The translations under genes were made by a program, and so were the position numbers. 20,000 bases of DNA. It comes from an uncultured virus (IMG/VR IMGVR_UViG_3300026551_000002) (lineage: Duplodnaviria; Heunggongvirae; Uroviricota; Caudoviricetes). The notes under the pieces were generated by a model. It was not told the origin of the DNA. It searched no databases and saw only the letters and a program-made list of their open reading frames with translations. Positions 3,025 to 20,000 of this stretch are shown here, piece after piece (position 1 is the first letter of the stretch; the number at the start of each line of letters is the position of its first letter). The DNA is taken from the IMG/VR virus record IMGVR_UViG_3300026551_000002; one strand, 5' to 3'.

Positions 3025-3025
3025 A

Positions 3026-4533: not shown

Positions 4534-4628
4534 AGAAACTACTCCTTTCAAACTATCTGAAACTACAATAACATTTACGAATACTACCACAAATGCATGC
4601 AACTGCACAATACTACATTGACAAAGTA

Positions 4629-4838: not shown

Positions 4839-4855
4839 AATGCAGCTCCAAAGTA

Positions 4856-5143: not shown

Positions 5144-5147
5144 GATA

Positions 5148-5324: not shown

Positions 5325-5327
5325 CTA

Positions 5328-5785: not shown

Positions 5786-6028
5786 GATAAATACTTCTTT
5801 ATCTTCTTGCAATCTGAGATTGCATGTACTCTACTGACAACTCTTTACCTGTTTCACTATCAATGATTTTTGATCCTGCCTGAGACTCTTTAATTAAATC
5901 ATCCCAGAAAAGCATTCCATAACCTAACCCGTAATTATCCACATCATAGATATCCCCACTATTCCACCAACCAACACGAATAACCTTTTTCTTGTATTCA
6001 TGATAAATACTCCTTTCAGAGTCGCTGA

Positions 6029-6496: not shown

Positions 6497-6690
6497 GGTA
6501 TTTTCTCCTTTTGTGTTTTTGAACTACTTTAAATATGTTTTTTTGCAACTTCCTTTGCCCTAAGCATCTCCGCGTCTCGTACGTTTTTCATCGGGACATG
6601 TCTACCGAAGTAACCAGTGTGTCGAAATCTAGAGTGAAAGTTCGCTATTCTCGATGCCCCTCGTCTCTGTATCCTCAACCTCACATACAC

Positions 6691-6719
6691 ATTATGCCAT
6701 ACATCATGCACTTTGTCAA
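6691..6719 (-). promoter_or_regulatory. leftward early promoter
   Basis: TTGACA-17 bp-CATAAT with TGn. Confidence 0.75.
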
Positions 6720-6777
6720 GGGGTTTGCCAAGCAGTTTATCACGAATATAACATAGAAATAAAAACTGATAAAAACC

Positions 6778-6806
6778 TTGACTTCTAGCCTGATAGGAAG
6801 TACACT
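6778..6806 (+). promoter_or_regulatory. rightward promoter for the XRE gene
   Basis: TTGACT-17 bp-TACACT. Confidence 0.7.
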
Positions 6807-6842
6807 TAGAATTAAGTTTCTAAGAAAGGAGAAACAAGGCTC

Positions 6843-7106
6843 ATGCCCACACTGAGAAGTCTACGAGAAGAAAATTACATCAGCAGAAAAAAACTAGCTT
6901 TACTGTCTGGTGTATCTGACTCTACTATCGTCCGAATAGAAGAGGGCAAAACCCATACCAATGAGGAAACTGCAATAAAAGTAGTAGAAGCCCTTGGTAA
7001 GGCAATAGGGCAAAATCTCACCATAGAAAATATTGAAGGATTGAAGCTCTATAACGCTATGAGGGATCGTAAACAAAAACCCAAAGAAGATAATCCGGCA
7101 GCATAG
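6843..7106 (+). CDS. XRE/Cro-family HTH regulator
   Basis: LRSLREENYISRKKLALLSGVSDSTIVRIEEG; RBS AGAAAGGAG. Confidence 0.9.
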   Translation: MPTLRSLREENYISRKKLALLSGVSDSTIVRIEEGKTHTNEETAIKVVEALGKAIGQNLTIENIEGLKLYNAMRDRKQKPKEDNPAA

Positions 7107-7306
7107 CCCTGGCTGGCGATGCCAACAAGAAAAACTGCATACACATCGCCAGCCATAGCCTTGCCCAATATTCTACCAGAATACATGCTCCAAAACTAGT
7201 CCCTAATCTTTCCCCATGCAAGGGGTTATGGAGGGGCATTTTGTTTGGGCAAAGTTGGTGGATAGTTGTGGGCAATCACCAAATTGTGTTAATAGTACTG
7301 GTTAGT

Positions 7307-7335
7307 TTGCAACTTGACTCATACTGTGTTATAAT
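7307..7335 (+). promoter_or_regulatory. promoter for the arc-dinD unit
   Basis: TTGCAA-17 bp-TATAAT with TGn. Confidence 0.75.
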
Positions 7336-7353
7336 AATGTCAGGAGGTTAAAA

Positions 7354-7548
7354 ATGGATCAAAGCAAAATCCTTCGCCGATCCTCTATTAATTTTCCAAG
7401 TGACATAGAGGAAGTTCTCAAAGAGAGAGCTGAAGTTAATAGACGCTCTCTCACAAAAGAAGTTGTATGGATTGTTGAACAGTTCCTTAAACAGGAACAA
7501 CAAAAAGAAGCTGTTGCAACAGCTTCTTTGAAAGGTGAAAATGTCTAA
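7354..7548 (+). CDS. Arc-family ribbon-helix-helix regulator
   Basis: SINFPSDIEEVLKERAEVNRRSLTKEVVWIVE; RBS AGGAGG. Confidence 0.85.
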   Translation: MDQSKILRRSSINFPSDIEEVLKERAEVNRRSLTKEVVWIVEQFLKQEQQKEAVATASLKGENV

Positions 7549-8338
7549 CAACTACAGTCAGCATCAGTCTACCACAGCCCTAGCAGTTTTCCAAGCATTG
7601 CCCTTTGATGCTATCCGTCTCTTTGATGAGCAAGGCAATGAATACTGGTCAGCTCGTGACCTTCAGGAATTGCTTGGATACCTAACATGGGAAAGATTTG
7701 AAGACGCTCTCGAACGAGCATCAATAGCCTGTAACAATAGCGGAGAAGAGCCTTCAGGTCATTTCGTCAACGCCGCGAAGCCAATAATTTCAGGAAAAGG
7801 AAGAGAGCAAGATATTAAAGACTACCATCTTACTCGTTATGCCTGTTACCTTACAGCACTAAACGGCGATCCTCGTAAACCAGAAATATCGGCTGCTCAA
7901 ACTTACTTTGTAATGAGAACAAGAGAGGCAGAGCAGAAACAACTCACACTGCAAAGGAGTACATTCATCCGTGCTTTGTGTGATCCGCAAGAATTGCGTC
8001 AAGCAATCGTATCTCATGAAGGAAAGATACAAGGACTAAAAGGCGACGTTCAAATCTTGGAGAAAGAGGCAACCTTGCTCCAAATGAATGAAGAATTTCT
8101 CTATCCTGAGCAAGCTACACCAAGAAAAATGAGTAGTGATCCAATTGAGCAAGCAATTTATGAGTACCTTTCAACTAAGAAAGTACAACTTATGGCTAGC
8201 CAACTACGATCATGTTACACCATTAAGGACATGCCTACTGTGTACATAGCCCGAATTTGTATGCATATGGTAAAGAATGGACTCTTGCAAAAGATAGATC
8301 CTATCCATCCACAAACCGCTTGTAGATTTTTCGTGTAG
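7541..8338 (+). CDS. DinD/Bro-N-domain protein (antirepressor-like)
   Basis: YWSARDLQELLGY, DYHLTRYACYL, NGDPRKPEISAAQTYF; C-terminus unrecognised. Confidence 0.8.
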   Translation: MSNNYSQHQSTTALAVFQALPFDAIRLFDEQGNEYWSARDLQELLGYLTWERFEDALERASIACNNSGEEPSGHFVNAAKPIISGKGREQDIKDYHLTRYACYLTALNGDPRKPEISAAQTYFVMRTREAEQKQLTLQRSTFIRALCDPQELRQAIVSHEGKIQGLKGDVQILEKEATLLQMNEEFLYPEQATPRKMSSDPIEQAIYEYLSTKKVQLMASQLRSCYTIKDMPTVYIARICMHMVKNGLLQKIDPIHPQTACRFFV

Positions 8339-8365
8339 TTTACCGGAGCCAATAAAACATCAGTC

Positions 8366-8396
8366 AAGGGACCTGGAAGGAGACGGGTCCCTTTTT
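8366..8396 (+). terminator. intrinsic terminator
   Basis: AAGGGACC/GGTCCCTT stem plus T-tract. Confidence 0.7.
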
Positions 8397-8459
8397 GTTG
8401 CCATCAAAGTTACACAAGGTATTCCCCTCGCAAGGTGGTATGCAAACTATCCTATACCG

Positions 8460-8488
8460 TTGACAACTGAACAATAATATTCTAAAAT
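8460..8488 (+). promoter_or_regulatory. promoter for HNH-1
   Basis: TTGACA-17 bp-TAAAAT. Confidence 0.75.
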
Positions 8489-8531
8489 GTTCGATACTAT
8501 TTACAGCTTCCAACGAACAAGGGATAGAGCC

Positions 8532-9398
8532 ATGACTGAAGACATTCCAATGAAGAAATGCACAGGACCATGTGGGCAAGAGTATCCTGCTACTTCTGAG
8601 TACTTCAACTCTGATAAAAACGGAAAATATAAACTAAAAGCTAGATGTAGAGAATGTTTAAGTACTTACAGCAAAGAACGTAACAAACGTCCAGAAATAA
8701 AACTAAGAGCACAAGAACGTGAAAAAATACGCACAAGACAATATAAAAGCAATTTAGAGCGCAGATCAAAACAAGCTGCACGTAAAAAAGAACGTTACCA
8801 TAACGATACAGAATATCGAACACGAAAACTTGCCATAGATAAAGCTTATCATAATCGTCCTGAAGTGAAAGAACGAAAACATGCTTATAATCAAGAATAT
8901 GGCAAAGAATACCGCAAACGCCCAGAAGCACGAGAAAAACGTCGAACTAGAGACAATGCAAGAAACCATCGTCCAGATATACGCGCAAAAAGATTAATCA
9001 AATTTCAAGAATACCGTAACCGTCCAGAAATACAAGAACGCAGACGTGCCTACAAAAAATATTACAACAAACGCCCAGAAGTACAATTAATGAGCCGTAC
9101 TTATAATCATACCAAACGTGCCCTTAACAGATCAGTCAAAGGTACCCATACCCATGAACAAATCCAAGAAAAGCTTAAAAAGCAAAAGCACAAGTGCTAC
9201 TACTGCAAAGCTCGACTTAGAAAAATCAAAGGTAGATACATTTACCACATTGAACACACCTTCCCACTCAGCCGCGTAGTAGGGACCGATATACCAGCCA
9301 ATAGCATTGACTACCTCGTGCTCTCATGCCCTACTTGCAACCTCAGTAAAGGCGATAAGTTCCCTTGGGAATGGGCAGAAGGTGGAAGACTCTTATAA
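8532..9398 (+). CDS. free-standing HNH endonuclease 1 (Zn ribbon + 17-aa repeats + HNH)
   Basis: CTGPC..CREC; CYYC, HIEHTFPLSR, CPTCNLSKG. Start revised to 8532 from paralog alignment and promoter position. Confidence 0.9.
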   Translation: MTEDIPMKKCTGPCGQEYPATSEYFNSDKNGKYKLKARCRECLSTYSKERNKRPEIKLRAQEREKIRTRQYKSNLERRSKQAARKKERYHNDTEYRTRKLAIDKAYHNRPEVKERKHAYNQEYGKEYRKRPEAREKRRTRDNARNHRPDIRAKRLIKFQEYRNRPEIQERRRAYKKYYNKRPEVQLMSRTYNHTKRALNRSVKGTHTHEQIQEKLKKQKHKCYYCKARLRKIKGRYIYHIEHTFPLSRVVGTDIPANSIDYLVLSCPTCNLSKGDKFPWEWAEGGRLL

Positions 9399-9522
9399 AT
9401 ATTAAGCCAAGTTACACAAGACATCATTGCCCAATGGTTGTGCTTTTCCCTATTGACGTGCGAGTTACAATAAATGCATTAAAACGTGTAGTTTTTATAC
9501 AAGATTTGAAAGGATTTCAAGC

Positions 9523-10053
9523 ATGAAACAACAATTTATGCTCCTCTTTGGATTGATCATTCTTACAGGAACAATTCTGGCTTGCGGAGAGAGTAACACA
9601 GGCACAACTGCTAACAATACTGGTAGCAGCACTACAACAAACGCTAGTAACAAACCAACTCAGCACTTCAAGATAGGTGATACTGTCAACGTCGGCTCTA
9701 TCTGGCAAATTGTCGTAAGCAACGTCCGAACAGTACCACCGGGCCAATTTGACACACTCAAGTCTGGAGATGCCTACACAGGCATTGATGTCACCTTTAA
9801 GAACATCTCCAACAAAGAAGAGAGCCTTTATGGAGATGCTGATTGGACTCTGAAGGATACATCAGGACAAAAATACAATAATGCCTATGTCTCTGATTTC
9901 CCCAATGCTCCAGAGGGCAAAGTAGAACCTGGTGATCCTGCCAAGGGATCACTCATTTTTGAAGTACCGAGCACTACTAAACAATTTACGCTGGCATTTG
10001 AAAATAACTCTTTCACTTCAGGCCAAACCATATGGGATTTATCTACATCTTGA
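9523..10053 (+). CDS. DUF4352-like lipoprotein
   Basis: Signal peptide with lipobox ILAC, T/N/S-rich linker, FKIGDTV, LKDTSGQKY, GKVEPGDPAKGSLIFEVP. Confidence 0.8.
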   Translation: MKQQFMLLFGLIILTGTILACGESNTGTTANNTGSSTTTNASNKPTQHFKIGDTVNVGSIWQIVVSNVRTVPPGQFDTLKSGDAYTGIDVTFKNISNKEESLYGDADWTLKDTSGQKYNNAYVSDFPNAPEGKVEPGDPAKGSLIFEVPSTTKQFTLAFENNSFTSGQTIWDLSTS

Positions 10054-10102
10054 CATCTCTGCTATACTGGAAACCGCATGATGGTACCGACTCAAGAGGA
10101 AA

Positions 10103-10144
10103 CAAAAAAGAGCCCTTACTGGCAAGAACGGGGGCTCTTTTTTG
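10103..10144. terminator. bidirectional terminator hairpin
   Basis: CAAAAAAGAGCCC/GGGCTCTTTTTTG. Confidence 0.75.
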
Positions 10145-10223
10145 TGGGAACTTTCATTCAATTCATGGGAATATTTGCCCAATTTGTGAGAAATGAAAGC
10201 TCTATTTGGGAACATGCCCAATG

Positions 10224-10266
10224 AAAAAAGAGCAACTGGACTCTGGCAAACAGTTGCTCTTTTTTT
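10224..10266. terminator. bidirectional terminator hairpin
   Basis: AAAAAAGAGCAACTG/CAGTTGCTCTTTTTT. Confidence 0.75.
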
Positions 10267-10318
10267 GCTTCTCAAGAAAGGAGACAATAGCCATGAGCAG
10301 TATAGCACACTTTCAAAA

Positions 10319-10381
10319 CTAATCTTGATACTTCTTTGCCTGTTGACTCCACAAATAAGGCCAATACTTCTTTGATGCCTT
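10319..10381 (-). pseudogene. orphan 3'-end remnant of the 11558-11857 gene
   Basis: Encodes KASKKYWPYLWSQQAKKYQD* versus EASKRYWPYLWSQQVKRYRD. Confidence 0.85.
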
Positions 10382-10382
10382 G

Positions 10383-10553
10383 CTACTCTTTTGCTGACAA
10401 TGCCTTTACGCGATCTTCTTCAGTGTAATATCTACGATTAGAAGCTTTCCGCTTAGCTTTAAGTATGCCCAACCTATCCCAACGCTGCAAAGTCTTTACT
10501 GAAACCCCCACAAGCTTAGCAAACTCAGTTGCATTGTATATTTTTTCTTCCAT
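10383..10553 (-). CDS. 56-aa MerR-like HTH (IS607 TnpA N-terminal-like), probably leaderless
   Basis: MEEKIYNATEFAKLVGVSVKTLQRWDRLGILKAKRKASNRRYYTEED; TAGACA-17-TAGTAT promoter ends 6 nt before the ATG. Confidence 0.8.
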   Translation of the reverse strand: MEEKIYNATEFAKLVGVSVKTLQRWDRLGILKAKRKASNRRYYTEEDRVKALSAKE

Positions 10554-10643
10554 ACACACATACTAACACCCTTGCACACTTCTGTCTAGATGTGCTATAA
10601 TCACTTATGAACACTTATACACACAAATAAAAGGACAAAAATC

Positions 10644-11537
10644 ATGAGTGATATTCCAATAAAGAAATGCACCGGCGCGTGTGGACAAGAGTATCCTGCT
10701 ACTATTGAATACTGGCATCGCAAAAATGGAGGTAAATATGGATTTTGTGCCAAGTGTAAAGCATGCGTAAACGAAGAAAAAGCAAATCAATATAGCGATC
10801 CAGAAAAACGCAATAAAGTACTAAAAATCAATAAAAATAGCTACCATAAACCTGATGTACATGAACGTATTCTTGCTCAAAAGAAAGAATACAGTAGTCA
10901 ACCAGAAGTGAAAACACATAGAGAAACTTATAACAAAGAATACTACACAAACAACAAAGAATATATTCAAAATCAACATAAAGGATATTATAATCTTCCT
11001 GAAATAAAAGAACACAGAAAAAACCAAAGTAAAAAATATCTAAATAGACCAGATATACGTGAGCATAAACAAAATTACCGCAAAACATATATGAATCGAC
11101 CAGGAATGAAAGCACATAGAAAAGCTTACATTGAAAAATACTATAATCGGCCAGGAATGAAAGAACGCAAGAAAGCTTATATGCAAAAATATCTTAAAGA
11201 ATACATGCTTAGACCTGGAATACGTGAACGTATGTATGCTATTGGACACGCCTACCGTGCTCGTAAAAAATCTATTAAAGGCACGCATACCCCACAACAA
11301 ATTCAAGATCAACTAAAACGACAAAAGCATAAATGCTACTATTGTCAGAAAAAATTCAATAAAATTAAAGGTCAATCACAATATCATATTGAACATACAT
11401 TCCCTATTTCTCGTGTTGCTGGTACTGACATCCCTGCCAATAGTATTGAATATCTAGTATTAGCATGCCCTACATGCAACACAAGTAAAGGAAACAAATT
11501 TCCTTGGGAATGGCCTCAAGGCGGAAGATTATTGTAA
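10644..11537 (+). CDS. free-standing HNH endonuclease 2 (paralog of HNH-1)
   Basis: Same N-terminal Zn ribbon and near-identical C-terminal HNH domain; promoter TTGCAC-18-TATAAT at 10572-10601. Confidence 0.9.
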   Translation: MSDIPIKKCTGACGQEYPATIEYWHRKNGGKYGFCAKCKACVNEEKANQYSDPEKRNKVLKINKNSYHKPDVHERILAQKKEYSSQPEVKTHRETYNKEYYTNNKEYIQNQHKGYYNLPEIKEHRKNQSKKYLNRPDIREHKQNYRKTYMNRPGMKAHRKAYIEKYYNRPGMKERKKAYMQKYLKEYMLRPGIRERMYAIGHAYRARKKSIKGTHTPQQIQDQLKRQKHKCYYCQKKFNKIKGQSQYHIEHTFPISRVAGTDIPANSIEYLVLACPTCNTSKGNKFPWEWPQGGRLL

Positions 11538-11557
11538 TCAACCTTAAAACATGACTT

Positions 11558-11857
11558 CTAAAACTGAGAGTCCCTATATCTTTTTACTTGTTGTGACCAC
11601 AGATAAGGCCAATATCGCTTACTGGCTTCCGTGAGATACACAGAATTAACCTCCATATCTTCGATACTCTGTGGAAATACCCTCCAGTGTGATTTCTTGG
11701 CACCTTTGGTTACAGGTTCTGGCATATGAGCTTGTACCCAACCATTTTTAATCCAATGCCTCACAGTCTTCATGCTCACATGATAAATCTCACTTACCTG
11801 ACGTACCGTGTAATAATCCTTTTGTACACGGATGTTATTTAACGTGATGTGTTGCAT
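11558..11857 (-). CDS. excisionase-like HTH protein with C-terminal extension
   Basis: YYTVRQVSEIYHVSMKTVRHWIKNGWV; RBS AGAAAGGA. Confidence 0.8.
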   Translation of the reverse strand: MQHITLNNIRVQKDYYTVRQVSEIYHVSMKTVRHWIKNGWVQAHMPEPVTKGAKKSHWRVFPQSIEDMEVNSVYLTEASKRYWPYLWSQQVKRYRDSQF

Positions 11858-12139
11858 ACATATGAATGTCCTTTCTGTAAAATATGATGGCTCCCTGGTG
11901 GTAGTGAGAGTGTCAAATTAACCAGGAAGCCAAACTAAGGAGACTAATCCTTTGCAAAGGTATGAATAGTATAGCATGGGTTGCAAACTACTCTATATCG
12001 CAATGAGAAGGTCAACAGATAGCTTTGCCCTATCATAACACCCCAAAGAAAAGCACATCTCCCAGGCCAATAAAAGAGATGTGCTTTACCATCCGTACCC
12101 TACTTGCAAAGATTATAGCATCCCCATGCAAACCTAACA

Positions 12140-12604
12140 CTACTCTACATAATCCGCAAGTGCTCTGATAAGATCAGGATTTTCTTTCATATTCCCCAAT
12201 GCAGTGTTACAAGTTTTGCACAAAAGACCTCTTACCATTCCTGTACTATGGCAATGGTCAACTGCCAATGCTCGTATTTTACCTTTTTGTTTTGCGGTTT
12301 CTGGTTGTTTGCATACTGCGCATAATCCATTTTGTTTCGCAAACATACAATCATATTGCTCAATAGTAATTCCATACTTTTTACGCAACTTTTGTTTACG
12401 TCTTTGTTTTGAATTATCTTTTTTACTATAATTTTCTCTACGAAAATCATTTACGCACTTCTTGCATTTATAATATAAACCATCTTTAGTAATACCACTA
12501 TGGTAAAAATAATCAAAAGTAGCATCAAGCATACGCCCACAAGGACCTGTACATTTCTTCAAAATGGGATTGCTGTCTTGAGAGGAAAATGATAAAGTAT
12601 TCAC
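12140..12604 (-). CDS. endonuclease VII-family (T4 gp49-like) free-standing nuclease
   Basis: KYGITIEQY..M...Q.G.CAVC, LAVDHCH, VRGLLCKTCNTALG; RBS AGGAG before GTG 12604. Confidence 0.9.
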   Translation of the reverse strand: MNTLSFSSQDSNPILKKCTGPCGRMLDATFDYFYHSGITKDGLYYKCKKCVNDFRRENYSKKDNSKQRRKQKLRKKYGITIEQYDCMFAKQNGLCAVCKQPETAKQKGKIRALAVDHCHSTGMVRGLLCKTCNTALGNMKENPDLIRALADYVE

Positions 12605-12681
12605 GATACATCTCCTAAGCTGATGTGTCCACGCCTCCGGTTGTTTCAGCAACGCGGGGGCAAAACCATATTTATGAGATT

Positions 12682-12710
12682 ATTATACCACACTATAGAG
12701 CAGTTTGCAA
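12682..12710 (-). promoter_or_regulatory. promoter for the EndoVII gene
   Basis: TTGCAA-17 bp-TATAAT with TGn on minus strand. Confidence 0.7.
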
Positions 12711-12744
12711 CAATATCATTCATACTAAAACCTTCTCAATACTA

Positions 12745-12773
12745 TTGACAACTGACCATAACTAATCTATACT
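12745..12773 (+). promoter_or_regulatory. promoter of the replication operon
   Basis: TTGACA-17 bp-TATACT. Confidence 0.8.
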
Positions 12774-12812
12774 ACAAATAACAGTTATAACAGTTCATAG
12801 AAAGGATGGCCA

Positions 12813-12983
12813 ATGAACACTCAAATCTCAAAACCGGAACCTCCAGTTGTGCAGTCAATCCGGTTCCCTCGTGACCTTTGGAATGAACTTCAAAAAAAAG
12901 CAGGTGAAGGATCATTCAATAAAATTGTTATTCGTGTACTCCAAGCCCAAATTGAACAAGAGAAAAAGGAAAAAGCATCATGA
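12813..12983 (+). CDS. 56-aa ribbon-helix-helix protein
   Basis: MNTQISKPEPPVVQSIRFPRDLWNELQKKAGEGSFNKIVIRVL; RBS AGAAAGGA; ATGA overlap with next gene. Confidence 0.75.
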   Translation: MNTQISKPEPPVVQSIRFPRDLWNELQKKAGEGSFNKIVIRVLQAQIEQEKKEKAS

Positions 12984-13297
12984 CGAAACAGTGGGGAGAT
13001 CTCACTCTTCTAGAGCAAAGAAAGCGTGAACTTTTAGCCAGTGAAGGAATTGTTTGTGGACAATGCGGTAAATCTGTCTCTTCGATAGTCTACTGGTGTG
13101 ATGATTGCCAGAAACAACACGAGCAAGAATGTGAAACTGATATCCATGAAAATCGTTCTTATGACGAAAATGGAGAAGAACACATTCAACTCATCAAAAA
13201 TGATACAGGTGAACTTCTAGACGAATTCACAACCGTATCACTCCACGATGATCCTACATCAGAACAATTACAAGCAATGCTTGATTGGGCAAATTAA
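12980..13297 (+). CDS. acidic Zn-ribbon protein
   Basis: CGQC...CDDC, acidic C-terminus. Confidence 0.65.
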   Translation: MTKQWGDLTLLEQRKRELLASEGIVCGQCGKSVSSIVYWCDDCQKQHEQECETDIHENRSYDENGEEHIQLIKNDTGELLDEFTTVSLHDDPTSEQLQAMLDWAN

Positions 13298-13317
13298 ACA
13301 AAAGAAAGAGGTAGATA

Positions 13318-14928
13318 ATGCTCAAAACAGTTTTTCAACCATCCACATATCAAAGGGCAATCTTCCAAGCTGTAAAAGATGGAGAAAAATCCCTAGTAAT
13401 CACCGCTTGCCCTGGCAGTGGCAAAACAACTACCATTCAACAGATCATACGTTACATTCCTGCCAATGCAACTGTACTCATGGTAGCATTTAATGTCGAA
13501 GCATCTAGGCAACTTCAATCAAAAGTTGATGATATCTCAAGAGCAATGCATGATGAAAACATGGCTACACCTCTGGTGAATTGCTCAACTATCCACAGCC
13601 TTGGCAACCAAACAATTAGCTCTGCTGGCATTCGCGGACAAGCCAAAGGTTATAAGTATTCAAAAATTGCTAAAGAATACCTTCAATCGCAAGGTGTCTT
13701 TGACAAGAATACTCCCCAAGATCTTACAGATTTATGCGACAAAGTACGCTTGACACTTTCCTCATTTCAAAAGCCAGATGGAGAAATCGATGAAGCTGTT
13801 CTGCAAAACCTTTGTGATCGATTTGAAATTGAGTTTGACGAGAAATACAAACAAATTTGCTTCAATGCGGTTCCAAAGATCTTGAAAGTCGGTATTGATC
13901 AAGCCCGCATAGGAAACATCGACTTCACAGATATGATTTGGCTTCCTGCAATTTTAGAATTGCAACCACGCCGATATGACCATGTTCTAGTAGACGAGGC
14001 ACAAGATCTAAATCCTGCACAACTTGCACTGGTATTAAAAGCCAGAAAACCAAATGGAAGATTTATAGCAGTGGGAGATGTCAATCAAGCCATATATGGC
14101 TTTGCAGGAGCATCTCTTGAAAGCATTCAAGAAATTATTGAAGCAACAGATGCCAATACACTGCCTCTCTCAATCTGCTATCGTTGCCCAACATCGGCTA
14201 TCCAGAAGGCAGCATCAATCTATTCAGGGATTGAAGCCGCGCCCAATATGCCCAAAGGGGAAATCAGAACAATTTTAGACAAAGACATAACAGATTTAGC
14301 ACGGCCAGGTGACTTGATCCTTAGTCGCTGCACAGCACCACTAGTAAGCCTTTGTCTTGAACTTCTTCGAGATGGCAAACGTGCCACGATACGTGGGCGT
14401 GATTTGGGCAAGTCTCTCGGCAAAGCAATTGATCAAATCAAAAAATATTGGCAACAAGTCCAATACGGTCAACTTAGTATTGATGATTTGCCAATAGCAA
14501 CAGGGATGTTTCTTAGTGCCCAACTAGACTCCCTGCAAGGGGATGGTCATGAAATGAAGCGTGCAAACTTGCAAGATAAGATTGACACGCTCTTATGTCT
14601 TCTAAGTCACTACACAGCTAACCATACCCACAAAAGCCTTGAAGGGTTCCAAGAATACATCATCAATTTTTTTGAAGAGGATAAAAATGCCCAGATCATC
14701 CTTGCAACTGGACATAGAGCCAAAGGGCTAGAATATCCTCGCGTATTCATTGTTAGCTCTAACAAGCAACCTCATCCTCTTGCAAAAACATCTGAAGCAA
14801 TCACACAAGAGTATAACCTAATGTACGTCATGTACACCAGGGTACTCTATCAAGCACACACCAATGGAAGCGGCACACTATTCCTAGGAATTGACGAAAA
14901 CTTCCAAAGAATAGAAGAATCATACTAA
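13318..14928 (+). CDS. UvrD/Rep-like superfamily 1 helicase
   Basis: ACPGSGKTT, VDEAQD, GDVNQAIYGFAGA, YRCP, TGHRAKGLEY, YVMYTR. Confidence 0.92.
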   Translation: MLKTVFQPSTYQRAIFQAVKDGEKSLVITACPGSGKTTTIQQIIRYIPANATVLMVAFNVEASRQLQSKVDDISRAMHDENMATPLVNCSTIHSLGNQTISSAGIRGQAKGYKYSKIAKEYLQSQGVFDKNTPQDLTDLCDKVRLTLSSFQKPDGEIDEAVLQNLCDRFEIEFDEKYKQICFNAVPKILKVGIDQARIGNIDFTDMIWLPAILELQPRRYDHVLVDEAQDLNPAQLALVLKARKPNGRFIAVGDVNQAIYGFAGASLESIQEIIEATDANTLPLSICYRCPTSAIQKAASIYSGIEAAPNMPKGEIRTILDKDITDLARPGDLILSRCTAPLVSLCLELLRDGKRATIRGRDLGKSLGKAIDQIKKYWQQVQYGQLSIDDLPIATGMFLSAQLDSLQGDGHEMKRANLQDKIDTLLCLLSHYTANHTHKSLEGFQEYIINFFEEDKNAQIILATGHRAKGLEYPRVFIVSSNKQPHPLAKTSEAITQEYNLMYVMYTRVLYQAHTNGSGTLFLGIDENFQRIEESY

Positions 14929-14932
14929 AAAT

Positions 14933-14976
14933 AGAGGCTAGCGTTAATCCTAGTAAAATTGTTGCTAGCCTCTTTT
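14933..14976 (+). terminator. intrinsic terminator
   Basis: AGAGGCTAGC/GCTAGCCTCT stem plus T-tract, long loop. Confidence 0.6.
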
Positions 14977-15041
14977 GTCACCACAACTTACACGTAGTAT
15001 ATCACATTAGTGCTAAAACTATCAACACATAGGAAATGTAG

Positions 15042-16766
15042 ATGAAACCCATGGCAGAAGAAGATAATTTGGTAGATTACAGCATATTAGCACATGATTA
15101 TATTTACGAATACCTCTTCAAAGCAAAAGTTATGGAGAATGGGCATCGACCTCCAACATTTGGAGAGTACGAATCTGCCATTAAACAATACGAAGGACAC
15201 ATAACAGAAAAACATGCTCCCGCTAAAAGAATGATTGAAAACATTAAAGCTGACATACGATTGGCTGACCTCATAGACGATGAAGATGAAAAGCCTGAAA
15301 CATGTCCTGAACTGCCAGAACATATTCGCATACCACAACACATTAAAGATGCATTTGCTCAAAGTGATACCTATCGCCTTATGCTATCCTATATCGATTT
15401 TAGTCGTAAAAGTTCACCACGCGGCTATAAAGATTATCATCCATTTTGCTTTCTCTGGTTACTCTCAACAATTGCAGCACGCCGTATCTATTTTCAGTTT
15501 GGACGCAAGAAAGTTTACACCAACTTACGTATAGCACTCTGCGGAGGATCAACCGGAGTCAAAAAATCGTTTACTGCTGAAGTTGCTATCTCACTCCTGC
15601 GAGAAGAACTAGGACTCTCCTATTTACTTATTGAAACAGAAGACATGACCCCTGAAGCTCTTATTATGAAAATGGTTGGTAAACGTGCAATTCCAGATGA
15701 TTATAAAGGATCATCAGATGAGCGAACAGATAAAATAAAAGAGCGTCTTGCATGGTCTGCTCAAAAATCCATGTATTGGGACGAGTTTGGTATGTTCTTA
15801 CGTAAAATATCAAAGGAAACAGGTTCATACACAGGATGGATAGATATCCTGCTCAAAGTAGAGGAATGTAAACCGATTACTAAAAGTACTGCTGGAAGGG
15901 GTGATGAAATTGTTGAGAAACCTTACTTACCATTCCTGGGAAATATAGTAGCTGCTTCAGTTGCCAAGATCACAAAGAAAGAAAGTGACTTACAAGTCAA
16001 TGGACTCATGCCAAGACAAATAACTATCTGCACGCCAGATGGTGAAAAGAGCGATGATCGAACAAAAGTAGCATACTTTCCAGGGCCTCCAGAACTTGTT
16101 GCATCACTTCTCCAGTGGCATGATACATTAGGTCAACCAATAGCTGATATCATTGACGAAAATGAAAACACTCAATCACCTGACTCAAAAAAACCATACA
16201 TATCTAATTGGACTGGAGTACTTATAGAAGAGTTACCAGAACATCAATGTAAATGGACTGAGCAAGCCGAGACAAGGTGGTATGAATACGGCTATGCTCT
16301 GGAAGAACTAGCAAGCATCAAAGGCTTCCCAGAGGACCTAGCAACACAGTACAGTGGACGACTAACCACCATCACACTCCGAATAGCTATGCTCTTTGCC
16401 AGCATCGATAATCGATATGGGAGACCAGAAGACACGATTATCACTGACCTCCATATGGCAATAGCACAAGAGCTTACTGAGATAGCACGTCAAGGCTCTC
16501 ACCGCTTCTATGAACAAGTTAATGGATTTAAGACACTCCAGTCAAAAATGGAAAGTGAAATAGTCGCACTTCTCAAAACAGTTGCATCAAAAGCAAAAAC
16601 AGAAGCAAAGGCATGGATAACCGTTGCTCAAATACGTAGTCGCTTAAACGAAAAGTACGGAACAGATGAAATCAAGAAAGCTCTCAAGCCACTGGAGGGA
16701 ACTGTAGTTGATTATCAAACAATCAATCGACCTAAATCAAAGGGAGCATACCGGATAAGAACATAA
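15042..16766 (+). CDS. DUF3987/YfjI-like P-loop ATPase (putative replicative helicase/origin-binding protein)
   Basis: NLRIALCGGSTGVKKS Walker A-like, MTPEAL, YWDEF Walker B, NGLMPR, LRIAMLF; probable C-terminal winged helix. Confidence 0.75.
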   Translation: MKPMAEEDNLVDYSILAHDYIYEYLFKAKVMENGHRPPTFGEYESAIKQYEGHITEKHAPAKRMIENIKADIRLADLIDDEDEKPETCPELPEHIRIPQHIKDAFAQSDTYRLMLSYIDFSRKSSPRGYKDYHPFCFLWLLSTIAARRIYFQFGRKKVYTNLRIALCGGSTGVKKSFTAEVAISLLREELGLSYLLIETEDMTPEALIMKMVGKRAIPDDYKGSSDERTDKIKERLAWSAQKSMYWDEFGMFLRKISKETGSYTGWIDILLKVEECKPITKSTAGRGDEIVEKPYLPFLGNIVAASVAKITKKESDLQVNGLMPRQITICTPDGEKSDDRTKVAYFPGPPELVASLLQWHDTLGQPIADIIDENENTQSPDSKKPYISNWTGVLIEELPEHQCKWTEQAETRWYEYGYALEELASIKGFPEDLATQYSGRLTTITLRIAMLFASIDNRYGRPEDTIITDLHMAIAQELTEIARQGSHRFYEQVNGFKTLQSKMESEIVALLKTVASKAKTEAKAWITVAQIRSRLNEKYGTDEIKKALKPLEGTVVDYQTINRPKSKGAYRIRT

Positions 16767-16783
16767 GTAAAAAGCATTCAACC

Positions 16784-16812
16784 AAGGGGAGGAAACGTTT
16801 CCTCCCCTTTTT
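16784..16812 (+). terminator. intrinsic terminator
   Basis: Perfect palindrome AAGGGGAGGAAAC|GTTTCCTCCCCTT followed by Ts. Confidence 0.75.
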
Positions 16813-16823
16813 ATTTACTTATG

Positions 16824-17301
16824 ATAAGTAGCATGCATCGGCTTGTCAAGCCACTTTAGACATAACCATAAGTAGAATAAGTAAAGTACTTATGCTTCCA
16901 CTTACAGCATGAAACGGCTCACAGAGCCAATCTATAGACAAACATAAGTAGATAAGTAAGATTCCTAACAAAGACAGAAAAATATTTGAAAAGAATTCCC
17001 CATGCAAGGGGTTAGGTTATCTAGACAACATTATTATTTATGGAATTATAATATACTATATATAGTATATTATATAAATAGTAGAATTAAAAGATGGTGA
17101 ATCGTACGCGCGAGTCTTGTCCTGACAAGTTATATTATTCTGAATTTGTATTTTTGTTACGAATCCTACTTATCTACTTATGTTATGCCTTAGATTGGCT
17201 TTTGAAGCGGGTTTGAGGCATAAGTGATACCATAAGTAGTTTACTTACTTTACTTACGGTATGTTGTGAAGTGGCTCTGCAAGCCGTCTTATGTTACTTA
17301 T
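16824..17301. other. putative bidirectional replication origin (long imperfect inverted repeat with iterons)
   Basis: Symmetric arms centred ~17062, 14 TAAGTA/TACTTA hexamers in 16764-17300, perfect 28-bp AT palindrome at 17047-17074, apparent strand-skew switch. Confidence 0.75.
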
Positions 17302-17389
17302 GATACTACCCTACCATCTTGCATGGGGAGAGAGCAGTTTCAAAACTGCTCTATACTGTTCTATCACTTGCAACGCATGTTTTGAATGT

Positions 17390-17438
17390 GTTATCGTAGC
17401 TCAGTGGGTAGAGCATTGGTCTCCGGAACCGTGGGCGC
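17390..17438 (+). pseudogene. 5' part of tRNA-Arg(CCG), degenerate and lacking a T-arm
   Basis: GTTATCG TA GCTC AGTGGGTA GAGC A TTGGT CTCCGGA ACCG: D-arm and anticodon loop present. Confidence 0.8.
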
Positions 17439-17520
17439 AACCTACTAAATTGGTGCTACACAACCAAATGGTAGAGTCAGGCAACCGGATGTCTAAGATT
17501 TCAGGACTATTTTGAGCTTA

Positions 17521-17563
17521 GTGTTCCCGACTGGAATCGAACCAGCGCACCCGGTTCCGGAGA
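17521..17563 (-). mobile_element. attP-like site: 3' half of tRNA-Arg(CCG)
   Basis: Minus strand reads TCTCCGGA ACCGG GTGC GCTGG TTCGATT CCAGT CGGGAAC AC; directly upstream of the integrase; flanked by TTGAGCTTAGT direct repeats. Confidence 0.8.
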
Positions 17564-17646
17564 TGTTGAGCTTAGTAAACCCTCTTCACAAGCCACTCTA
17601 TCCCCCTTGCAAGGTGATATGCAATCAAATAAACGTAGGGATGTAA

Positions 17647-18678
17647 ATGAAGATTAAAAAGCGTAGTGAGTCAGAAGATGTATTTGTTCAGGAAGTTACA
17701 CAAGAATATCTCTCATCTCCTCATGTCAGAAAGTTAAGTCCTCGTACTCAGGAGGAATATCAGCAGGAGCTTGGAGTCTTTTCAGATTGGTGCTCATGCC
17801 GTCAAATTTGCAATGAGAAGGGCAAGAGAGAGGTTATAGCTGGTGAAGGTCTTATGCTTCATCAAATTGATCAGCATGCCGTTCAGTTCTTTCTTGAGCA
17901 TCTACAGGTTACCCACAAGCCGACAAAGAAAAGTGAGCTTTCAACTTATACACTGGCAGGCTATGTTCGTGTGATTAAATCCTTTCTGAATTGGTGCCTG
18001 CAGGATGAGCAGTATGGATGTTGCACAAGCTCTGTTGTTATCCAGCGAATTGAAAATCCTAAAGTGATAGAGGTTATCATTGAAACTTTCTCTCCTGAGC
18101 AGATCCAAGCATTGTTTAAAGCGTGTGACAAAGAAGAAAGTGAACATCTCCAGATGAGAGATAAAGCTATCCTGGCTGTACTCCTGGATTGTGGACTCCG
18201 AGCAACAGAACTTATCACTCTTACCATAGGCAATATTTCATTAGATACAAAAGATGCATATGTGAGAGTGTTAGGCAAGGGAAACAAATGGGGAGAAGTT
18301 GGATTAGGTGAGCAGTCTAGACGGTATGTGCATAAGTATGTGAGAATGTTTAGAATATCAACTATAGGCAAACAAATACCACTACAGGATGCATTAGTAT
18401 TTGTCAATAGGTATGGTGAACAACTTACAAAATCAGGATTGTGGAGGATAGTTGATCGTCTTGGAGATTGGGCAAAGATAGAAGGTGTACGTTGCTCTCC
18501 ACATACATTTCGTCACACTTACGCGCGTATGTTTATGCAGAATGGAGGTGACATTTATAAGCTGAGTAAACTTCTTCGACACTCATCAGTGTCGGTTACT
18601 GAACAGTATCTAAAATCTCTTCAGCAATCGGAAGCGCGTAAAGGTGCCAAGTCTGTATTGGACAATTTAGGGCAATGA
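17647..18678 (+). CDS. int: tyrosine recombinase/integrase (XerC/D-like)
   Basis: GLRATEL (R), GKGNK (K), HTFRH (HxxR), LRHS (H), TEQY (Y); N-terminal core-binding domain. Confidence 0.95.
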   Translation: MKIKKRSESEDVFVQEVTQEYLSSPHVRKLSPRTQEEYQQELGVFSDWCSCRQICNEKGKREVIAGEGLMLHQIDQHAVQFFLEHLQVTHKPTKKSELSTYTLAGYVRVIKSFLNWCLQDEQYGCCTSSVVIQRIENPKVIEVIIETFSPEQIQALFKACDKEESEHLQMRDKAILAVLLDCGLRATELITLTIGNISLDTKDAYVRVLGKGNKWGEVGLGEQSRRYVHKYVRMFRISTIGKQIPLQDALVFVNRYGEQLTKSGLWRIVDRLGDWAKIEGVRCSPHTFRHTYARMFMQNGGDIYKLSKLLRHSSVSVTEQYLKSLQQSEARKGAKSVLDNLGQ

Positions 18679-18696
18679 TGAGAACTATATGGCAGT

Positions 18697-18725
18697 TTGC
18701 AAAGTGATGGCACATGTGCTATACT
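18697..18725 (+). promoter_or_regulatory. promoter
   Basis: TTGCAA-17 bp-TATACT with TGn. Confidence 0.7.
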
Positions 18726-18756
18726 GATGGAAGATTTTTAGAGAGGGTCTGCTTGA

Positions 18757-18927
18757 ATGTCAGAGAATCCGGCGAATAAGAAAGTAACCATTCGTGTTCC
18801 AATCTCTTTGTATGTAGGAGTGCGAGGAGTGTGCAAAAAAGAGCATATGTCTTTTAGCAAAAAGGTGAAATTGCTTTTAGAGCGTGAAATGATGCAAAAG
18901 GAACATGAGAAAGGTTGGTTGTTGTAA
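18757..18927 (+). CDS. 56-aa ribbon-helix-helix protein
   Basis: KKVTIRVPISLYVGVRGVCKKEHMSFSKKVKLLLERE; manual translation. Confidence 0.7.
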   Translation: MSENPANKKVTIRVPISLYVGVRGVCKKEHMSFSKKVKLLLEREMMQKEHEKGWLL

Positions 18928-19072
18928 GTGTGTCCCTCTGCTCTCCCTTTGCAGAGGGACAAAACCAGACACATGATTGGAGCATGTGCTAGGTTAGCCT
19001 TTATATTAGCATACAAGTGCTTTTATGGCCTATCCTGGCACGATGAAAAGTGAAAGGAATAGGTTTTTTGTT

Positions 19073-20000
19073 ATGAACCGTATCGGTGGAAAGATCATTT
19101 TATGGTTGTTGATTTTATCGTTGATTGTGTTTACAGCCATCAGAACTTTGCATTTCTTGGAGCTAACATTTCCTCCTGATCTTGGATATGTTGCCTATCT
19201 GGGATTGGCAGCATTCGATATTGGCATTCTGGGATGGTTCTACTTTGCTACCCAATCAGCAGAGGGTGCTGGTCAAAGAGCGATAGCATACGGGATGATT
19301 TTTGTTTGCATGACTGGTGTCGTGATTACTACAGTTGCAGATATGGTTATTGTCTCAAGTCAGAATGGGCTTACAAAGTTACCTCCTCAGTGGGGCACTA
19401 TCGGCTTGTGGGGAGTGATCATTGTTATTGTTTTGAATGTGGTGGCAGGCATTGTTGTTCATTTAGCTGCTCCTGAGCATGCTAGGCATTTGGCAATGGA
19501 GAATGCCAGAGATCGTATTCATTCGACAGTTCTTGCTCACATTTCAGCACAGGCTGATACTATTGCGCCGCAAATTGCAGCGCATACCGCGCAACATTGG
19601 GCTAATCAAGTTATTCATGAAATGACTGGAAGTATTCCAGGATCTTACAATGCTCCTGTTTTATCAACTCCTAAAGTAGTTGATGCTGATCCTCCAAAGA
19701 ATGTTCCTGCCATTTCTCATAATCCAGTAGTCAAGGCTGCTTCTCCTGAAGCTGTAGTTGATCCTCACAAAGTGAAACCTCGTGTAGATGCTGAAGCAAA
19801 ATCTCTTGAGAAACCAAAGTCGTTTGGGCAAATGCTCGGAAACGTCCATGCCGGCATCCACAATGCCATTGACAAGCGACTTGATGGCAGTAAATCTGTT
19901 CCAATTGAACGTACTGAGGATGAGTACTCCCCTGAGTTTGAGCAAGCACTTGATAATGAGATTGAAAAACCTGCTCAAGGCAAGAAGACTACGGTTTTTG
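19073..20000 (+). CDS. four-TM membrane protein with Pro/Ala-rich cytoplasmic tail (partial)
   Basis: ATG 19073, open to window end (MNRIGGKIILWLLILSLIVFTAIRTLHFL...AAFDIGILGW...); missed by the ORF track because it has no stop. Confidence 0.8.
   Translation, partial: MNRIGGKIILWLLILSLIVFTAIRTLHFLELTFPPDLGYVAYLGLAAFDIGILGWFYFATQSAEGAGQRAIAYGMIFVCMTGVVITTVADMVIVSSQNGLTKLPPQWGTIGLWGVIIVIVLNVVAGIVVHLAAPEHARHLAMENARDRIHSTVLAHISAQADTIAPQIAAHTAQHWANQVIHEMTGSIPGSYNAPVLSTPKVVDADPPKNVPAISHNPVVKAASPEAVVDPHKVKPRVDAEAKSLEKPKSFGQMLGNVHAGIHNAIDKRLDGSKSVPIERTEDEYSPEFEQALDNEIEKPAQGKKTTVF

What the first reader, a model, noticed from the sequence alone, without database searches (positions are those of the whole stretch)
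17390..17576. Split tRNA-Arg(CCG) with halves in inverted orientation beside the integrase: possible invertible att/tRNA switch
Seen: a 5' tRNA half on + (17390-17438) and a 3' half on - (17521-17563). They share a perfect 12-bp inverted repeat spanning the anticodon loop (TCTCCGGAACCG, 17420-17431 vs 17552-17563; 17/19 when extended). Inverting the ~120 bp between the cores would assemble a full cloverleaf, with one acceptor mismatch (A4:G69) and several G-U pairs. Known: tyrosine integrases often cross over in tRNA anticodon loops and attP normally carries only the 3' part. Inference: the element carries its own attB mimic, so Int could flip the segment, toggling attP competence and/or creating a tRNA. 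Alternatively the 5' half is a relic of an old integration, or acts as a cis-antisense trailer to the restored host tRNA.
Basis: partly seen in the sequence, partly recalled or inferred. Interest (0 to 1): 0.88.

Follow-up and report, generated by a model that had tools for sequence, protein, structure and literature searches.

The report
Phage attachment site with mirrored tRNA-half
This is the docking site that a virus of soil Ktedonobacteria uses to insert into an arginine tRNA gene; it and its relatives also keep a backwards copy of the gene's front half, whose job is still unknown.

Summary
A tRNA-Arg(CCG) 5' part lies on + (17390-17438). The 3' part lies on - (17562-17522). They share a 12/12 (17/19) inverted repeat, and an in-silico flip gives an ARAGORN tRNA.

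The window is a non-integrated phage-like element. Its 3' half is identical to tRNA-Arg(CCG) of Dictyobacter and other Ktedonobacteria, not to the bin's own tRNA.

The 3' half next to the tyrosine integrase is an ordinary attP identity block. Two complete lysogens (D. kobayashii, unnamed G133) show an intact tRNA at attL and integrase plus a displaced 3' half at attR.

The inverted 5' half is neither a local relic nor chance. It is present in 14 of 14 evaluable free-form relatives (integrase 49-91% identical). It always matches that relative's target (Arg CCG, TCT, TCG or GCG), and it sits inside the element in three lysogens.

All 15 free-form copies are in the split state. The crossover loop of the 5' copy is altered in 9 of 15 free copies and in 3 of 3 lysogen copies. 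A flip switch is therefore not the family's function, though this window keeps an identical loop.

Best reading (about 50%): an accessory attB-left mimic in the P' arm that binds integrase, perhaps with a promoter.

I found no description of this layout in print.

The parts
17368..17389 (+). Conserved block upstream of the 5' half (TTGCAA, 18 nt, then TATCGT, which overlaps the acceptor). It is promoter-like and reads towards the 5' half and int.
   Evidence: 8 of 12 matches to the sigma-70 consensus, not better than shuffles (62 of 200). A similar block ACTTGCAAC(G/A)CAT..TTGATGTG precedes the 5' half in L023, L025, L026, L031, L033 and L034. Other relatives carry TTGACT-18-TAGGAT or host-like tRNA promoters.
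17390..17420 (+). Inverted copy of the 5' part of tRNA-Arg(CCG): acceptor 5' strand, D-arm and 5' anticodon stem. This is the 'B' (left) half of attB.
   Evidence: It matches the Dictyobacter tRNA at 26 of 31 positions (differences CC>AT in the acceptor, A>G in the D-loop, CC>TT in the stem).
17421..17438 (+). Pseudo-core O1: anticodon loop CTCCGGA followed by a degenerate right half-site ACCGTGGGCGC.
   Evidence: I4 (17/19 inverted repeat with 17545-17563). The loop is identical to the real crossover loop in this window. It is altered in 9 of 15 family members.
17433..17521 (+). Spacer, read as the P' arm, with weak half-site-like repeats (GCGCAACC at 17435, ACACAACC at 17457, GGCAACCGG at 17479) about 22 bp apart.
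   Evidence: motif chosen after seeing the data. At the stricter threshold the window itself has 0 hits. The family total is 12 observed against 0.82 expected.
17522..17562 (-). attP identity block: the 3' part of tRNA-Arg(CCG) from the anticodon loop (O2, + strand 17556-17562) to the acceptor end plus A73. This is the site that actually recombines with the host tRNA gene.
   Evidence: It matches exactly the tRNA-Arg(CCG) genes of Dictyobacter and other Ktedonobacteria.
17563..17576 (+). Integrase-side half-site region (C). It is one copy of the 14-nt direct repeat that brackets the 3' half; the other copy is at 17509-17522.
   Evidence: D8. TTGTTGAGCTTA is conserved at this place in L023, L025 and L056.
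17603..17616 (.). CCCCTTGCAAGGTG, a near-palindromic motif conserved between attP and int in the relatives. Candidate operator or -35 element of int.
   Evidence: 9 matches in the window against 0.05 expected; present before int in the related loci.
17647..18678 (+). Tyrosine integrase of 343 aa. It has a SAM-like N-terminal domain and a catalytic domain, and no detectable separate arm-binding domain.
   Evidence: PF00589 at 3e-30 (residues 148-326) and PF13495 (residues 24-121).

Best explanation
The region 17368-17646 is the attP of a temperate phage-like element of Ktedonobacteria (Chloroflexota) that integrates into tRNA-Arg genes.

Shown: the - strand 3' half (O2) is the recombining site. 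Crossover in the anticodon loop joins the host 5' half to the phage 3' half. This restores the tRNA at attL and leaves the integrase next to the displaced host 3' half at attR.

Shown: the + strand 5' half is an element-borne, inverted copy of the left half of attB. It is carried at the far end of the P' arm by the whole integrase clade, and it always matches the tRNA-Arg isoacceptor that the element targets.

Inferred: the integrase has no separate arm-binding domain, and the spacer holds repeats that resemble core half-sites in the same orientation. The 5' half therefore most likely serves as an accessory, non-recombining integrase-binding site (an attB-left mimic) that helps build or regulate the recombination complex. 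A promoter-like block in front of it may also read across attP into int only while the element is not integrated.

Inferred: its match to the target is kept up to date by gene conversion against the host copy, with which it forms a close inverted repeat in lysogens.

It is not, as a family trait, a flip switch that assembles a tRNA.
For: Phage context on both sides: RusA, SLT, HNH, EndoVII, UvrD-like helicase, DUF3987 and Int. The ORF right of int is shared with viral contigs.

Host: the 3' half pattern hits 12 places in genome contigs, 11 titled Ktedonobacterales, Ktedonobacteraceae or Dictyobacter and one 'uncultured Chloroflexia bacterium' (L014). Seven are intact tRNA-Arg(CCG) genes and 5 are displaced fragments.

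Lysogens. In D. kobayashii the intact tRNA is followed by three AACCGGGTGYG repeats and the reverse complement of a 5' half. An Int 56-60% identical and a displaced 3' half with the native trailer lie about 39 kb away. In G133 the layout is the same over about 51 kb. G158 shows the attL-type arrangement for tRNA-Arg(GCG). Empty sites (L011, L014-L016, L019, L021) have no inverted 5' half in the 100-260 nt shown downstream of the tRNA (only 100 nt for L016, whose contig ends there).

Conservation: 14 of 14 free-form relatives have the split inverted layout. Targets among the 15 loci including the window are CCG (9), TCT (4), TCG (1) and GCG (1). The Int tree puts them in one clade (98/95) with CCG and TCT targets intermixed, so the 5' half changed together with the target several times.

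Against flipping: 0 of 15 are in the intact state. The loop is altered in 9 of 15 free copies and 3 of 3 lysogen copies.

Half-site-like repeats in the spacers: 12 observed against 0.82 expected, all in the orientation of B and of the O2 half-site. G133 has three B-like direct repeats next to its 5' half.

Refreshment: the G133 inverted repeat is perfect over about 55 nt, including 24 nt of host promoter and leader. L029 has an intact loop although it is nested among loop-deleted L027, L028 and L058.

No arm-binding domain was found in Int.
Against: No binding, transcription or recombination data exist. The function is inferred from anatomy only.

In the window itself no spacer site passed the threshold. 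The roughly 22-bp phased motif was defined after the fact.

A half-site needs about 10-15 bp, yet the copy runs to tRNA position 1 and, in some elements, into the host promoter. The binding-site idea does not explain that.

The promoter-like score of the window is not better than shuffles. It reaches 9 of 12 or more in only 6 of 18 phage copies.

Conservation of the 5' half relative to its flanks is mixed: 75-97% identity between close pairs, lower than the flanks for win-L025 and higher for win-L023, L027-L058 and L033-L034.

L039 (Int 48% identical, placed inside the clade without resolution) shows no halves in 800 nt upstream.

The window, L026, L029, L031, L033 and L034 keep an identical 7-nt loop in both copies, so Int-mediated inversion remains chemically possible there.
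Confidence: 0.5

Rival explanations
1. Invertible switch. Int, perhaps with an excisionase, inverts the segment between the two loops. That toggles the phage between the observed form (split tRNA, tRNA-restoring attP) and a form with an intact, promoter-driven phage tRNA-Arg plus a short-core attP.
For: In the window the two loops and 12 flanking bases are identical, and the flip gives a recognisable tRNA. Six of 15 loci keep identical loops. The TCCGGA centre of the CCG loop is palindromic. The 5' half has a promoter-like block or a host-type tRNA promoter. The flipped form would equal the layout of tRNA-dependent lysogeny (PMC10865867; abstract and discussion read). Two HTH_17 excisionase-like genes lie in the window.
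Against: Zero of 15 assemblies are in the flipped state, and the intact CCG-type tRNA string was not found in IMG/VR. Nine of 15 free copies and 3 of 3 lysogen copies have loops that cannot pair with the real one. D-stem (GCTC to GCAA or GCGA in L025, L028, L032) and acceptor mismatches would cripple the assembled tRNA. The D. kobayashii and G133 elements integrated through O2 although their O1 is dead.
Confidence: 0.12
2. Self-perpetuating by-product with no function. An arm site that resembled the B half-site seeded an inverted repeat with the host tRNA in lysogens. Gene conversion or template switching across that repeat then copies the host 5' half, and sometimes its promoter, into the element again and again.
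For: The lysogen inverted repeats are perfect or nearly perfect and run into host leader and promoter (55 nt in G133; 47 nt with 1 mismatch in G158). The intact loop of L029 is nested among deleted relatives. There is lineage-specific decay in the acceptor, D-stem and loop. The 5' half diverges faster than its flanks between the window and L025.
Against: It is retained in 14 of 14 free-form relatives down to 49% Int identity and through several target switches, in genomes that otherwise share little non-coding sequence. It always has the same orientation and place relative to int. In 4 of 7 close pairs it is more conserved than the 60 nt upstream.
Confidence: 0.2
3. RNA-level role. The promoter in front of the 5' half drives a transcript across attP. 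In the free element this expresses int, and integration cuts int off from that promoter. In the lysogen the transcript runs antisense into the restored tRNA and can fold back on itself.
For: A promoter-like block or a host-type tRNA promoter always points from the 5' half towards int. No terminator-like site was found on + between 17390 and 17647. Promoters that read across the att junction only in circular forms are known for ICEs and IS circles (recalled, not checked here).
Against: The window's promoter score is not significant. int has its own conserved TTGCAAGG motif downstream of O2. No RNA run holds this sequence (0 rows on record as RNA). This idea explains the promoter but not why the tRNA part is kept and tracks the target.
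Confidence: 0.13

Closest known systems
Canonical tRNA-targeting tyrosine-integrase attP with anticodon-loop crossover (Williams 2002 sublocation classes; Islander-type islands). Recalled; only reference-list and search-listing entries were seen.
   Same: int lies next to att. The identity block runs from the anticodon loop to the tRNA 3' end. Integration restores the tRNA and leaves a displaced 3' fragment as a direct repeat.
   Different: Known attP sites carry only the 3' part. Here the element also carries an inverted copy of the 5' part, with pseudo-core and promoter-like sequence, 109-208 bp (5' half start to tRNA 3' end) from the real site.
tRNA-dependent lysogeny of actinobacteriophages (Guerrero-Bustamante and Hatfull 2024, PMC10865867; abstract and discussion read).
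   Same: The phage carries sequence of the same tRNA isotype as its attB. The in-silico flipped form would be an intact phage tRNA beside a short-core attP.
   Different: In those phages the phage tRNA is intact and needed because integration destroys the host tRNA, and their integrases have arm-binding domains. Here the tRNA is split in all 15 copies and integration restores the host gene.
Accessory sites that are copies of core half-sites: TnpI with the IRS of Tn4430 (DR1, DR2), and IntI with attI (DR1, DR2). Recalled, not checked in papers here.
   Same: The recombinase lacks an arm-binding domain, and extra same-motif sites lie beside the core in a fixed orientation.
   Different: Binding was not tested here. 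The distal site is embedded in a full copy of the target's left half and faces the array as part of a pseudo-core.
CTX-phi attP, in which two inverted dif-like sites about 90 nt apart fold in ssDNA. Recalled.
   Same: Two inverted copies of the crossover region are separated by about 100 nt.
   Different: Only the loop and one half-site would pair. The inverted identity is 6-14 nt and is not conserved. The element has dsDNA-phage replication genes.
Site-specific inversion switches (FimB/FimE fimS, Hin/Gin, Rci shufflon). Recalled.
   Same: Inverted repeats lie beside a recombinase gene.
   Different: Both orientations are never seen, and the crossover sequence is not conserved between the two repeats in most members.
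CPR serine-integrase islands with a spare inverted attP
   Same: tRNA-targeting elements that keep an inverted extra copy of att sequence of unknown purpose.
   Different: Those use large serine recombinases and the spare is a whole attP. Here it is a tyrosine integrase and a copy of the host-side (attB-left) half.

Membership tests
tRNA-gene-integrating tyrosine-integrase element (attP with 3' tRNA block) | Tyrosine recombinase catalytic domain encoded next to the site | tested here: met
   PF00589 at 3e-30 in 17647-18678.
tRNA-gene-integrating tyrosine-integrase element (attP with 3' tRNA block) | attP block identical to the 3' part of a host tRNA gene | tested here: met
   Exact match of the 38-nt pattern to tRNA-Arg(CCG) of Dictyobacter and other Ktedonobacteria.
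tRNA-gene-integrating tyrosine-integrase element (attP with 3' tRNA block) | Integrated copies show an intact tRNA at one end and a displaced 3' fragment plus int at the other | tested here: met
   D. kobayashii, about 39 kb. G133, about 51 kb. These are relatives (Int 56-60% identical), not this exact phage.
Site-specific DNA inversion switch | Both orientations occur in populations | tested here: not met
   Zero of 15 free-form assemblies are flipped, and there are 0 hits for the intact CCG-type tRNA string in IMG/VR.
Site-specific DNA inversion switch | Identical crossover sequence in the two inverted sites | tested here: inconclusive
   Met in the window and 5 relatives. Not met in 9 of 15 free copies and 3 of 3 lysogen copies.
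tRNA-dependent lysogeny | Intact phage-encoded tRNA of the target's isotype | tested here: not met
   ARAGORN finds 0 tRNAs in the window and in all 15 loci.
tRNA-dependent lysogeny | Integration fails to rebuild the host tRNA | tested here: not met
   The attL tRNA is intact in the lysogens.
Split tRNA genes expressed in halves (Nanoarchaeum type) | Halves whose assembled cloverleaf is conserved, with complementary leader and trailer for joining | tested here: not met
   There is an acceptor mismatch in the window, and D-stem-breaking changes in L025, L028 and L032. The 3' half is explained by attP. Leader-trailer pairing was not examined beyond the inverted repeat.
Folded single-strand attP (CTX-phi type) | Conserved inverted repeat that rebuilds a complete core with both half-sites | tested here: not met
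   The inverted identity is 6-14 nt, varies, and covers the loop plus one side only.

The most novel reading that the evidence does not exclude
The family is a living link between the two ways phages use tRNA genes. An Int (plus excisionase) reaction between the phage's own tRNA-Arg gene, acting as an attB mimic, and a short-core attP interconverts two forms. One is a 'tRNA-dependent lysogeny' form with an intact, expressed phage tRNA. The other is the observed 'canonical' form, whose attP carries the 3' half and restores the host gene. In phages such as this window, whose two loops are still identical, the flip may still operate. It would decide whether the phage makes a tRNA-Arg and which att chemistry it uses.
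Probability: 0.12. Interest if true: 0.85.

Novelty: new variant of a known kind. Interest (0 to 1): 0.6.

Why it matters
tRNA genes are the commonest landing sites for phages and genomic islands. The accepted picture is that an element carries only the 3' part needed to repair the gene. Here a whole integrase clade in Ktedonobacteria phages and defence-gene islands also carries the other half of the target, inverted and matched to each new target.

If it is an integrase-binding attB mimic, it shows how a simple integrase without an arm-binding domain can build a directional attP.

If it is the footprint, or a working part, of inversion between attP and a phage tRNA gene, it bears on a question the tRNA-dependent-lysogeny paper leaves open (PMC10865867, discussion): how that mode and canonical tRNA-restoring integration are related.

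It is also a practical marker. An intact tRNA followed within about 250 bp by the reverse complement of its own 5' half flags these elements.

Tried and rejected
There is therefore no read evidence either way.

2. The phage collection (INPHARED) by blastn gave no match to 16700-18700.

3. Host among the bin's own tRNAs. The tRNA-Arg(CCG) of G000 on C156 is unrelated to the halves. Zero of 20 relatives of G000 have the attB sequence. The bin is not the host.

4. A relic of a local integration: rejected, because both flanks are phage DNA.

5. An intrinsic terminator made by the antisense 5' half: no T-run follows it. G133 has its own terminator right after the tRNA.

6. A degenerate T-arm continuing the 5' half on the + strand: read by eye, no convincing stem. 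ARAGORN at relaxed score finds nothing.

7. The D-arm pattern over 151 Ktedonobacteria genomes was too unspecific to pair copies. It was replaced by gapped patterns, which cover only gaps of 125-186 nt. One of the three genomes hit was a chance match (G084).

8. Proteins of the window against the lysogen islands gave only a distant integrase hit. The integrated relatives share the att-int module, not the cargo.

9. Literature. Searches (terms listed there) and passages of PMC9897764 gave no description of an inverted 5' tRNA half in an attP.

Full report
**What is in the window**

The + strand from 17390 reads as the 5' part of a tRNA-Arg(CCG). It gives acceptor GTTATCG, D-arm, anticodon stem TTGGT, loop CTCCGGA at 17421-17427, then ACCGTGGGCGC.

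The reverse complement of 17523-17562 reads as the same loop followed by a clean 3' anticodon stem, variable loop, T-arm and acceptor strand CGGGAAC, with A73 at 17522.

The two parts overlap as an inverted repeat, 12/12 at 17420-17431 / 17552-17563 and 17/19 when extended. ARAGORN sees no tRNA natively. After inverting 17432-17551 in silico it calls tRNA-Arg(ccg), with the A4.G69 mismatch and several G-U pairs. Rfam gives only a sub-threshold partial hit on the 5' part.

**Context**

The window is phage-like on both sides. To the left are RusA, an SLT lysozyme, HNH and EndoVII nucleases, a UvrD-type helicase and a DUF3987 protein, followed by a terminator at 16784-16809. To the right are a 343-aa tyrosine integrase (17647-18678) and an ORF shared with viral contigs. 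This is therefore a free-form attP region, not a prophage-host junction.

In the held assembly the window spans two contigs (C10 and C120). The bin is not the host. Its own tRNA-Arg(CCG) is unrelated. Its 20 nearest relatives are 0.7-1.0 Mb genomes, and none has the target sequence.

**Host and integrated forms**

The 3' half pattern hits 12 places in the species-representative genomes. Eleven are titled Ktedonobacterales, Ktedonobacteraceae or Dictyobacter, and one is titled 'uncultured Chloroflexia bacterium' (L014). Seven are intact tRNA-Arg(CCG) genes and five are displaced 3' fragments.

In Dictyobacter kobayashii the intact tRNA keeps the host upstream region but has a new trailer.
- The trailer holds three AACCGGGTGYG repeats.
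- About 150 nt downstream lies the reverse complement of a tRNA 5' half.
- In that copy the anticodon stem is kept but the loop is replaced (AGAGGAA).
- About 39 kb away lies an integrase 56-60% identical to the window's. Next to it is a displaced 3' half that carries the native trailer seen at the empty site of D. aurantiacus.

- attL holds the intact tRNA, a terminator, three direct repeats resembling the D-arm/anticodon-stem half-site, then the inverted 5' half.
- The far end holds an integrase 56% identical and a displaced 3' half.

G158 has the attL-type arrangement at tRNA-Arg(GCG).

Integration therefore uses the 3' half in the ordinary way. The 5' half is cargo of the element, placed just inside its int-distal end. 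The integrated relatives carry defence genes (TIR-NB-ARC-TPR, type I R-M) and share no cargo with the window.

**The inverted 5' half is a family trait**

Integrase searches in IMG/VR and JGI metagenomes gave 8, 31 and 12 loci, with several contigs found twice.

I cut each upstream region at many points, flipped the right part and ran ARAGORN with introns allowed. This recovered a tRNA in the window and in 14 relatives: L023, L025-L034, L056, L058 and L062, with Int 49-91% identical.

- The same test also produced one call in L035 ('tRNA-Glu' at a single cut position). I read that call as spurious, because L035 has a GC-rich host flank upstream of a tRNA-Arg(TCT) 3' half and is an attR-type junction.
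- It gave nothing in 12 other loci: L020 (an attR), L036 (partial int), L039, L040, L042-L048 and L063.
- L037, L061, L038 and L041 end too close to int to judge.
- L039 (48% identical) is the one possible clade member with 800 nt of upstream sequence and no halves.

All 15 are tRNA-Arg, but the isoacceptor differs. CCG occurs in 9, TCT in 4 (L056, L030, L033, L034), TCG in L031 and GCG in L062. In each, the acceptor strand of the 5' part pairs with that of its own 3' part, for example GCGCCCA with TGGGCGC and GTTGCTG with CAGCAAC.

On the integrase tree these loci form one clade (98/95). CCG and TCT users are intermixed there: L032 groups with L035 at 100/99, and L056 sits inside a CCG group at 99/95. 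The target changed several times, and the 5' half changed with it.

**Against a flip switch**

All 15 free-form loci are in the split state, with 0 intact tRNAs. The intact CCG-type tRNA string is absent from IMG/VR.

The loop of the 5' copy equals the real crossover loop in only 6 of 15 loci: the window, L026, L029, L031, L033 and L034. The others differ.
- L023 has a 1-nt insertion.
- L027, L028 and L058 have a 3-nt deletion.
- L025, L030, L032, L056 and L062 have substitutions.
- All three lysogen copies diverge at or right after the loop boundary.

The sequence right of the loop is degenerate everywhere. D-stem-breaking changes (GCTC to GCAA or GCGA) arose in L025, L028 and L032, and acceptor mismatches are common. 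The assembled cloverleaf is therefore not under selection.

Reads could not be examined. Rare flipping in this particular phage stays open.

**What the 5' half may do**

The integrase has a SAM-like N-terminal domain starting near residue 24, and no arm-binding domain was detected. Accessory sites, if any, should then look like core half-sites.

Across the 15 spacers, matches to each locus's own half-sites number 12 against 0.82 expected from shuffles. All are in the orientation shared by the 5' half's left half-site and the half-site at the real core. The G133 and D. kobayashii spacers carry three clear direct repeats.

In the window itself no site passes that threshold. Weaker GC(A/G)CAACC-like sites lie about 22 bp apart, but I chose that motif after seeing the data.

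My best reading is that the 5' half is the distal, highest-fidelity member of this array. It would be an attB-left mimic that binds integrase without recombining.

A promoter-like block always precedes it and points towards int.
- Host tRNA promoters are clear: TTGAGA-17-TATAGT in 5 of the 8 host copies, and 9-11 of 12 consensus matches in all 8.
- Phage copies reach 9 of 12 or more in 6 of 18.
- The window scores 8 of 12, which is not significant.

Transcription across attP into int only in the free form is a second, compatible idea.

**How the match to the target is kept**

In lysogens the element's copy and the host's 5' half form a close inverted repeat. It is perfect over about 55 nt in G133, including 24 nt of host promoter and leader. 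It is 47 nt with one mismatch in G158.

L029 has an intact loop although it is nested among three loop-deleted relatives.

Both points suggest gene conversion against the host copy. This also feeds the rival view that the 5' half is a self-renewing passenger. Its conservation relative to flanks is mixed.

**Comparison with what is known**

The 3' half and lysogen structure meet every tested criterion of a canonical tRNA-targeting tyrosine-integrase attP.

The extra inverted 5' half is not part of that picture. I found no description of it in four full-text searches or in passages of a paper on tRNA gene fragments (PMC9897764).

The nearest concept is tRNA-dependent lysogeny (PMC10865867; abstract and discussion read). 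The flipped form of this locus would equal that layout. The discussion of that paper says the evolutionary relation between the two modes is unclear.

Earlier AI notes of this scan report serine-integrase islands of CPR bacteria with a spare inverted attP. That is a parallel in a different recombinase family, and I did not test it.

**Verdict**

It is a conserved and, as far as I could search, undescribed variant of a known kind of site. The switch interpretation is unlikely as the general function, and the true role of the mirrored half is unresolved.

Noticed in passing
window 1255-1268, 7212-7225, 8424-8437, 16998-17011, 17603-17616: The palindromic motif CCCCTTGCAAGGGG and near variants is strongly over-represented: 9 strand matches against 0.05 expected. 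It sits before int in the related loci as well. Candidate phage operator or promoter element.
   Followed up: partly
window 16810-17310: The non-coding region between the replication genes and attP holds a 161-nt imperfect inverted repeat (16820-16980 / 17145-17305), many ATAAGTA(G) repeats and perfect AT-rich palindromes (17047-17074). Candidate replication origin or binding array for an accessory protein.
   Followed up: no
window 17509-17522 and 17563-17576: A 14-nt direct repeat AT(T/G)TTGAGCTTAGT brackets the 3' tRNA half exactly. TTTTGAGCT and TTGTTGAGCTTA recur at the corresponding places in several relatives. Possibly further protein-binding sites of attP.
   Followed up: partly
window 1-12008 vs 12072-20000; genome G000: The window spans two contigs of the held assembly, and 63 nt (12009-12071) are absent from it. 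The bin (1.58 Mb) has relatives of 0.7-1.0 Mb, and its tRNAs encode CCA, unlike the phage's target. The phage contigs look mis-binned.
   Followed up: partly
window 8487-9398 and 10644-11537: Two paralogous HNH proteins of about 300 aa have long lysine/arginine-rich repeats (RPE/RPD-type) before the nuclease domain. An 85%-identical 274-nt stretch also occurs further along contig C120.
   Followed up: no
L012, L018, L020 (D. kobayashii, about 1.384-1.433 Mb): Three copies of the tRNA-Arg(CCG) 3' part lie within 49 kb, indicating tandem elements at one tRNA gene. A second, 38-42% identical integrase lies downstream of the native site, also in D. aurantiacus. The cargo includes a TIR-NB-ARC-TPR protein and a type I R-M system.
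   Followed up: partly
L025, L028, L032 (5' halves): Three separate lineages changed the D-stem 5' strand GCTC to GCAA, GCAA and GCGA (with an extra A in two). This is a recurrent change that random decay does not obviously explain.
   Followed up: no
L017, L022 (genome contigs): Displaced tRNA-Arg(CCG) 3' fragments with no relative of this integrase in the fetched flank. Other element families appear to use the same site.
   Followed up: no
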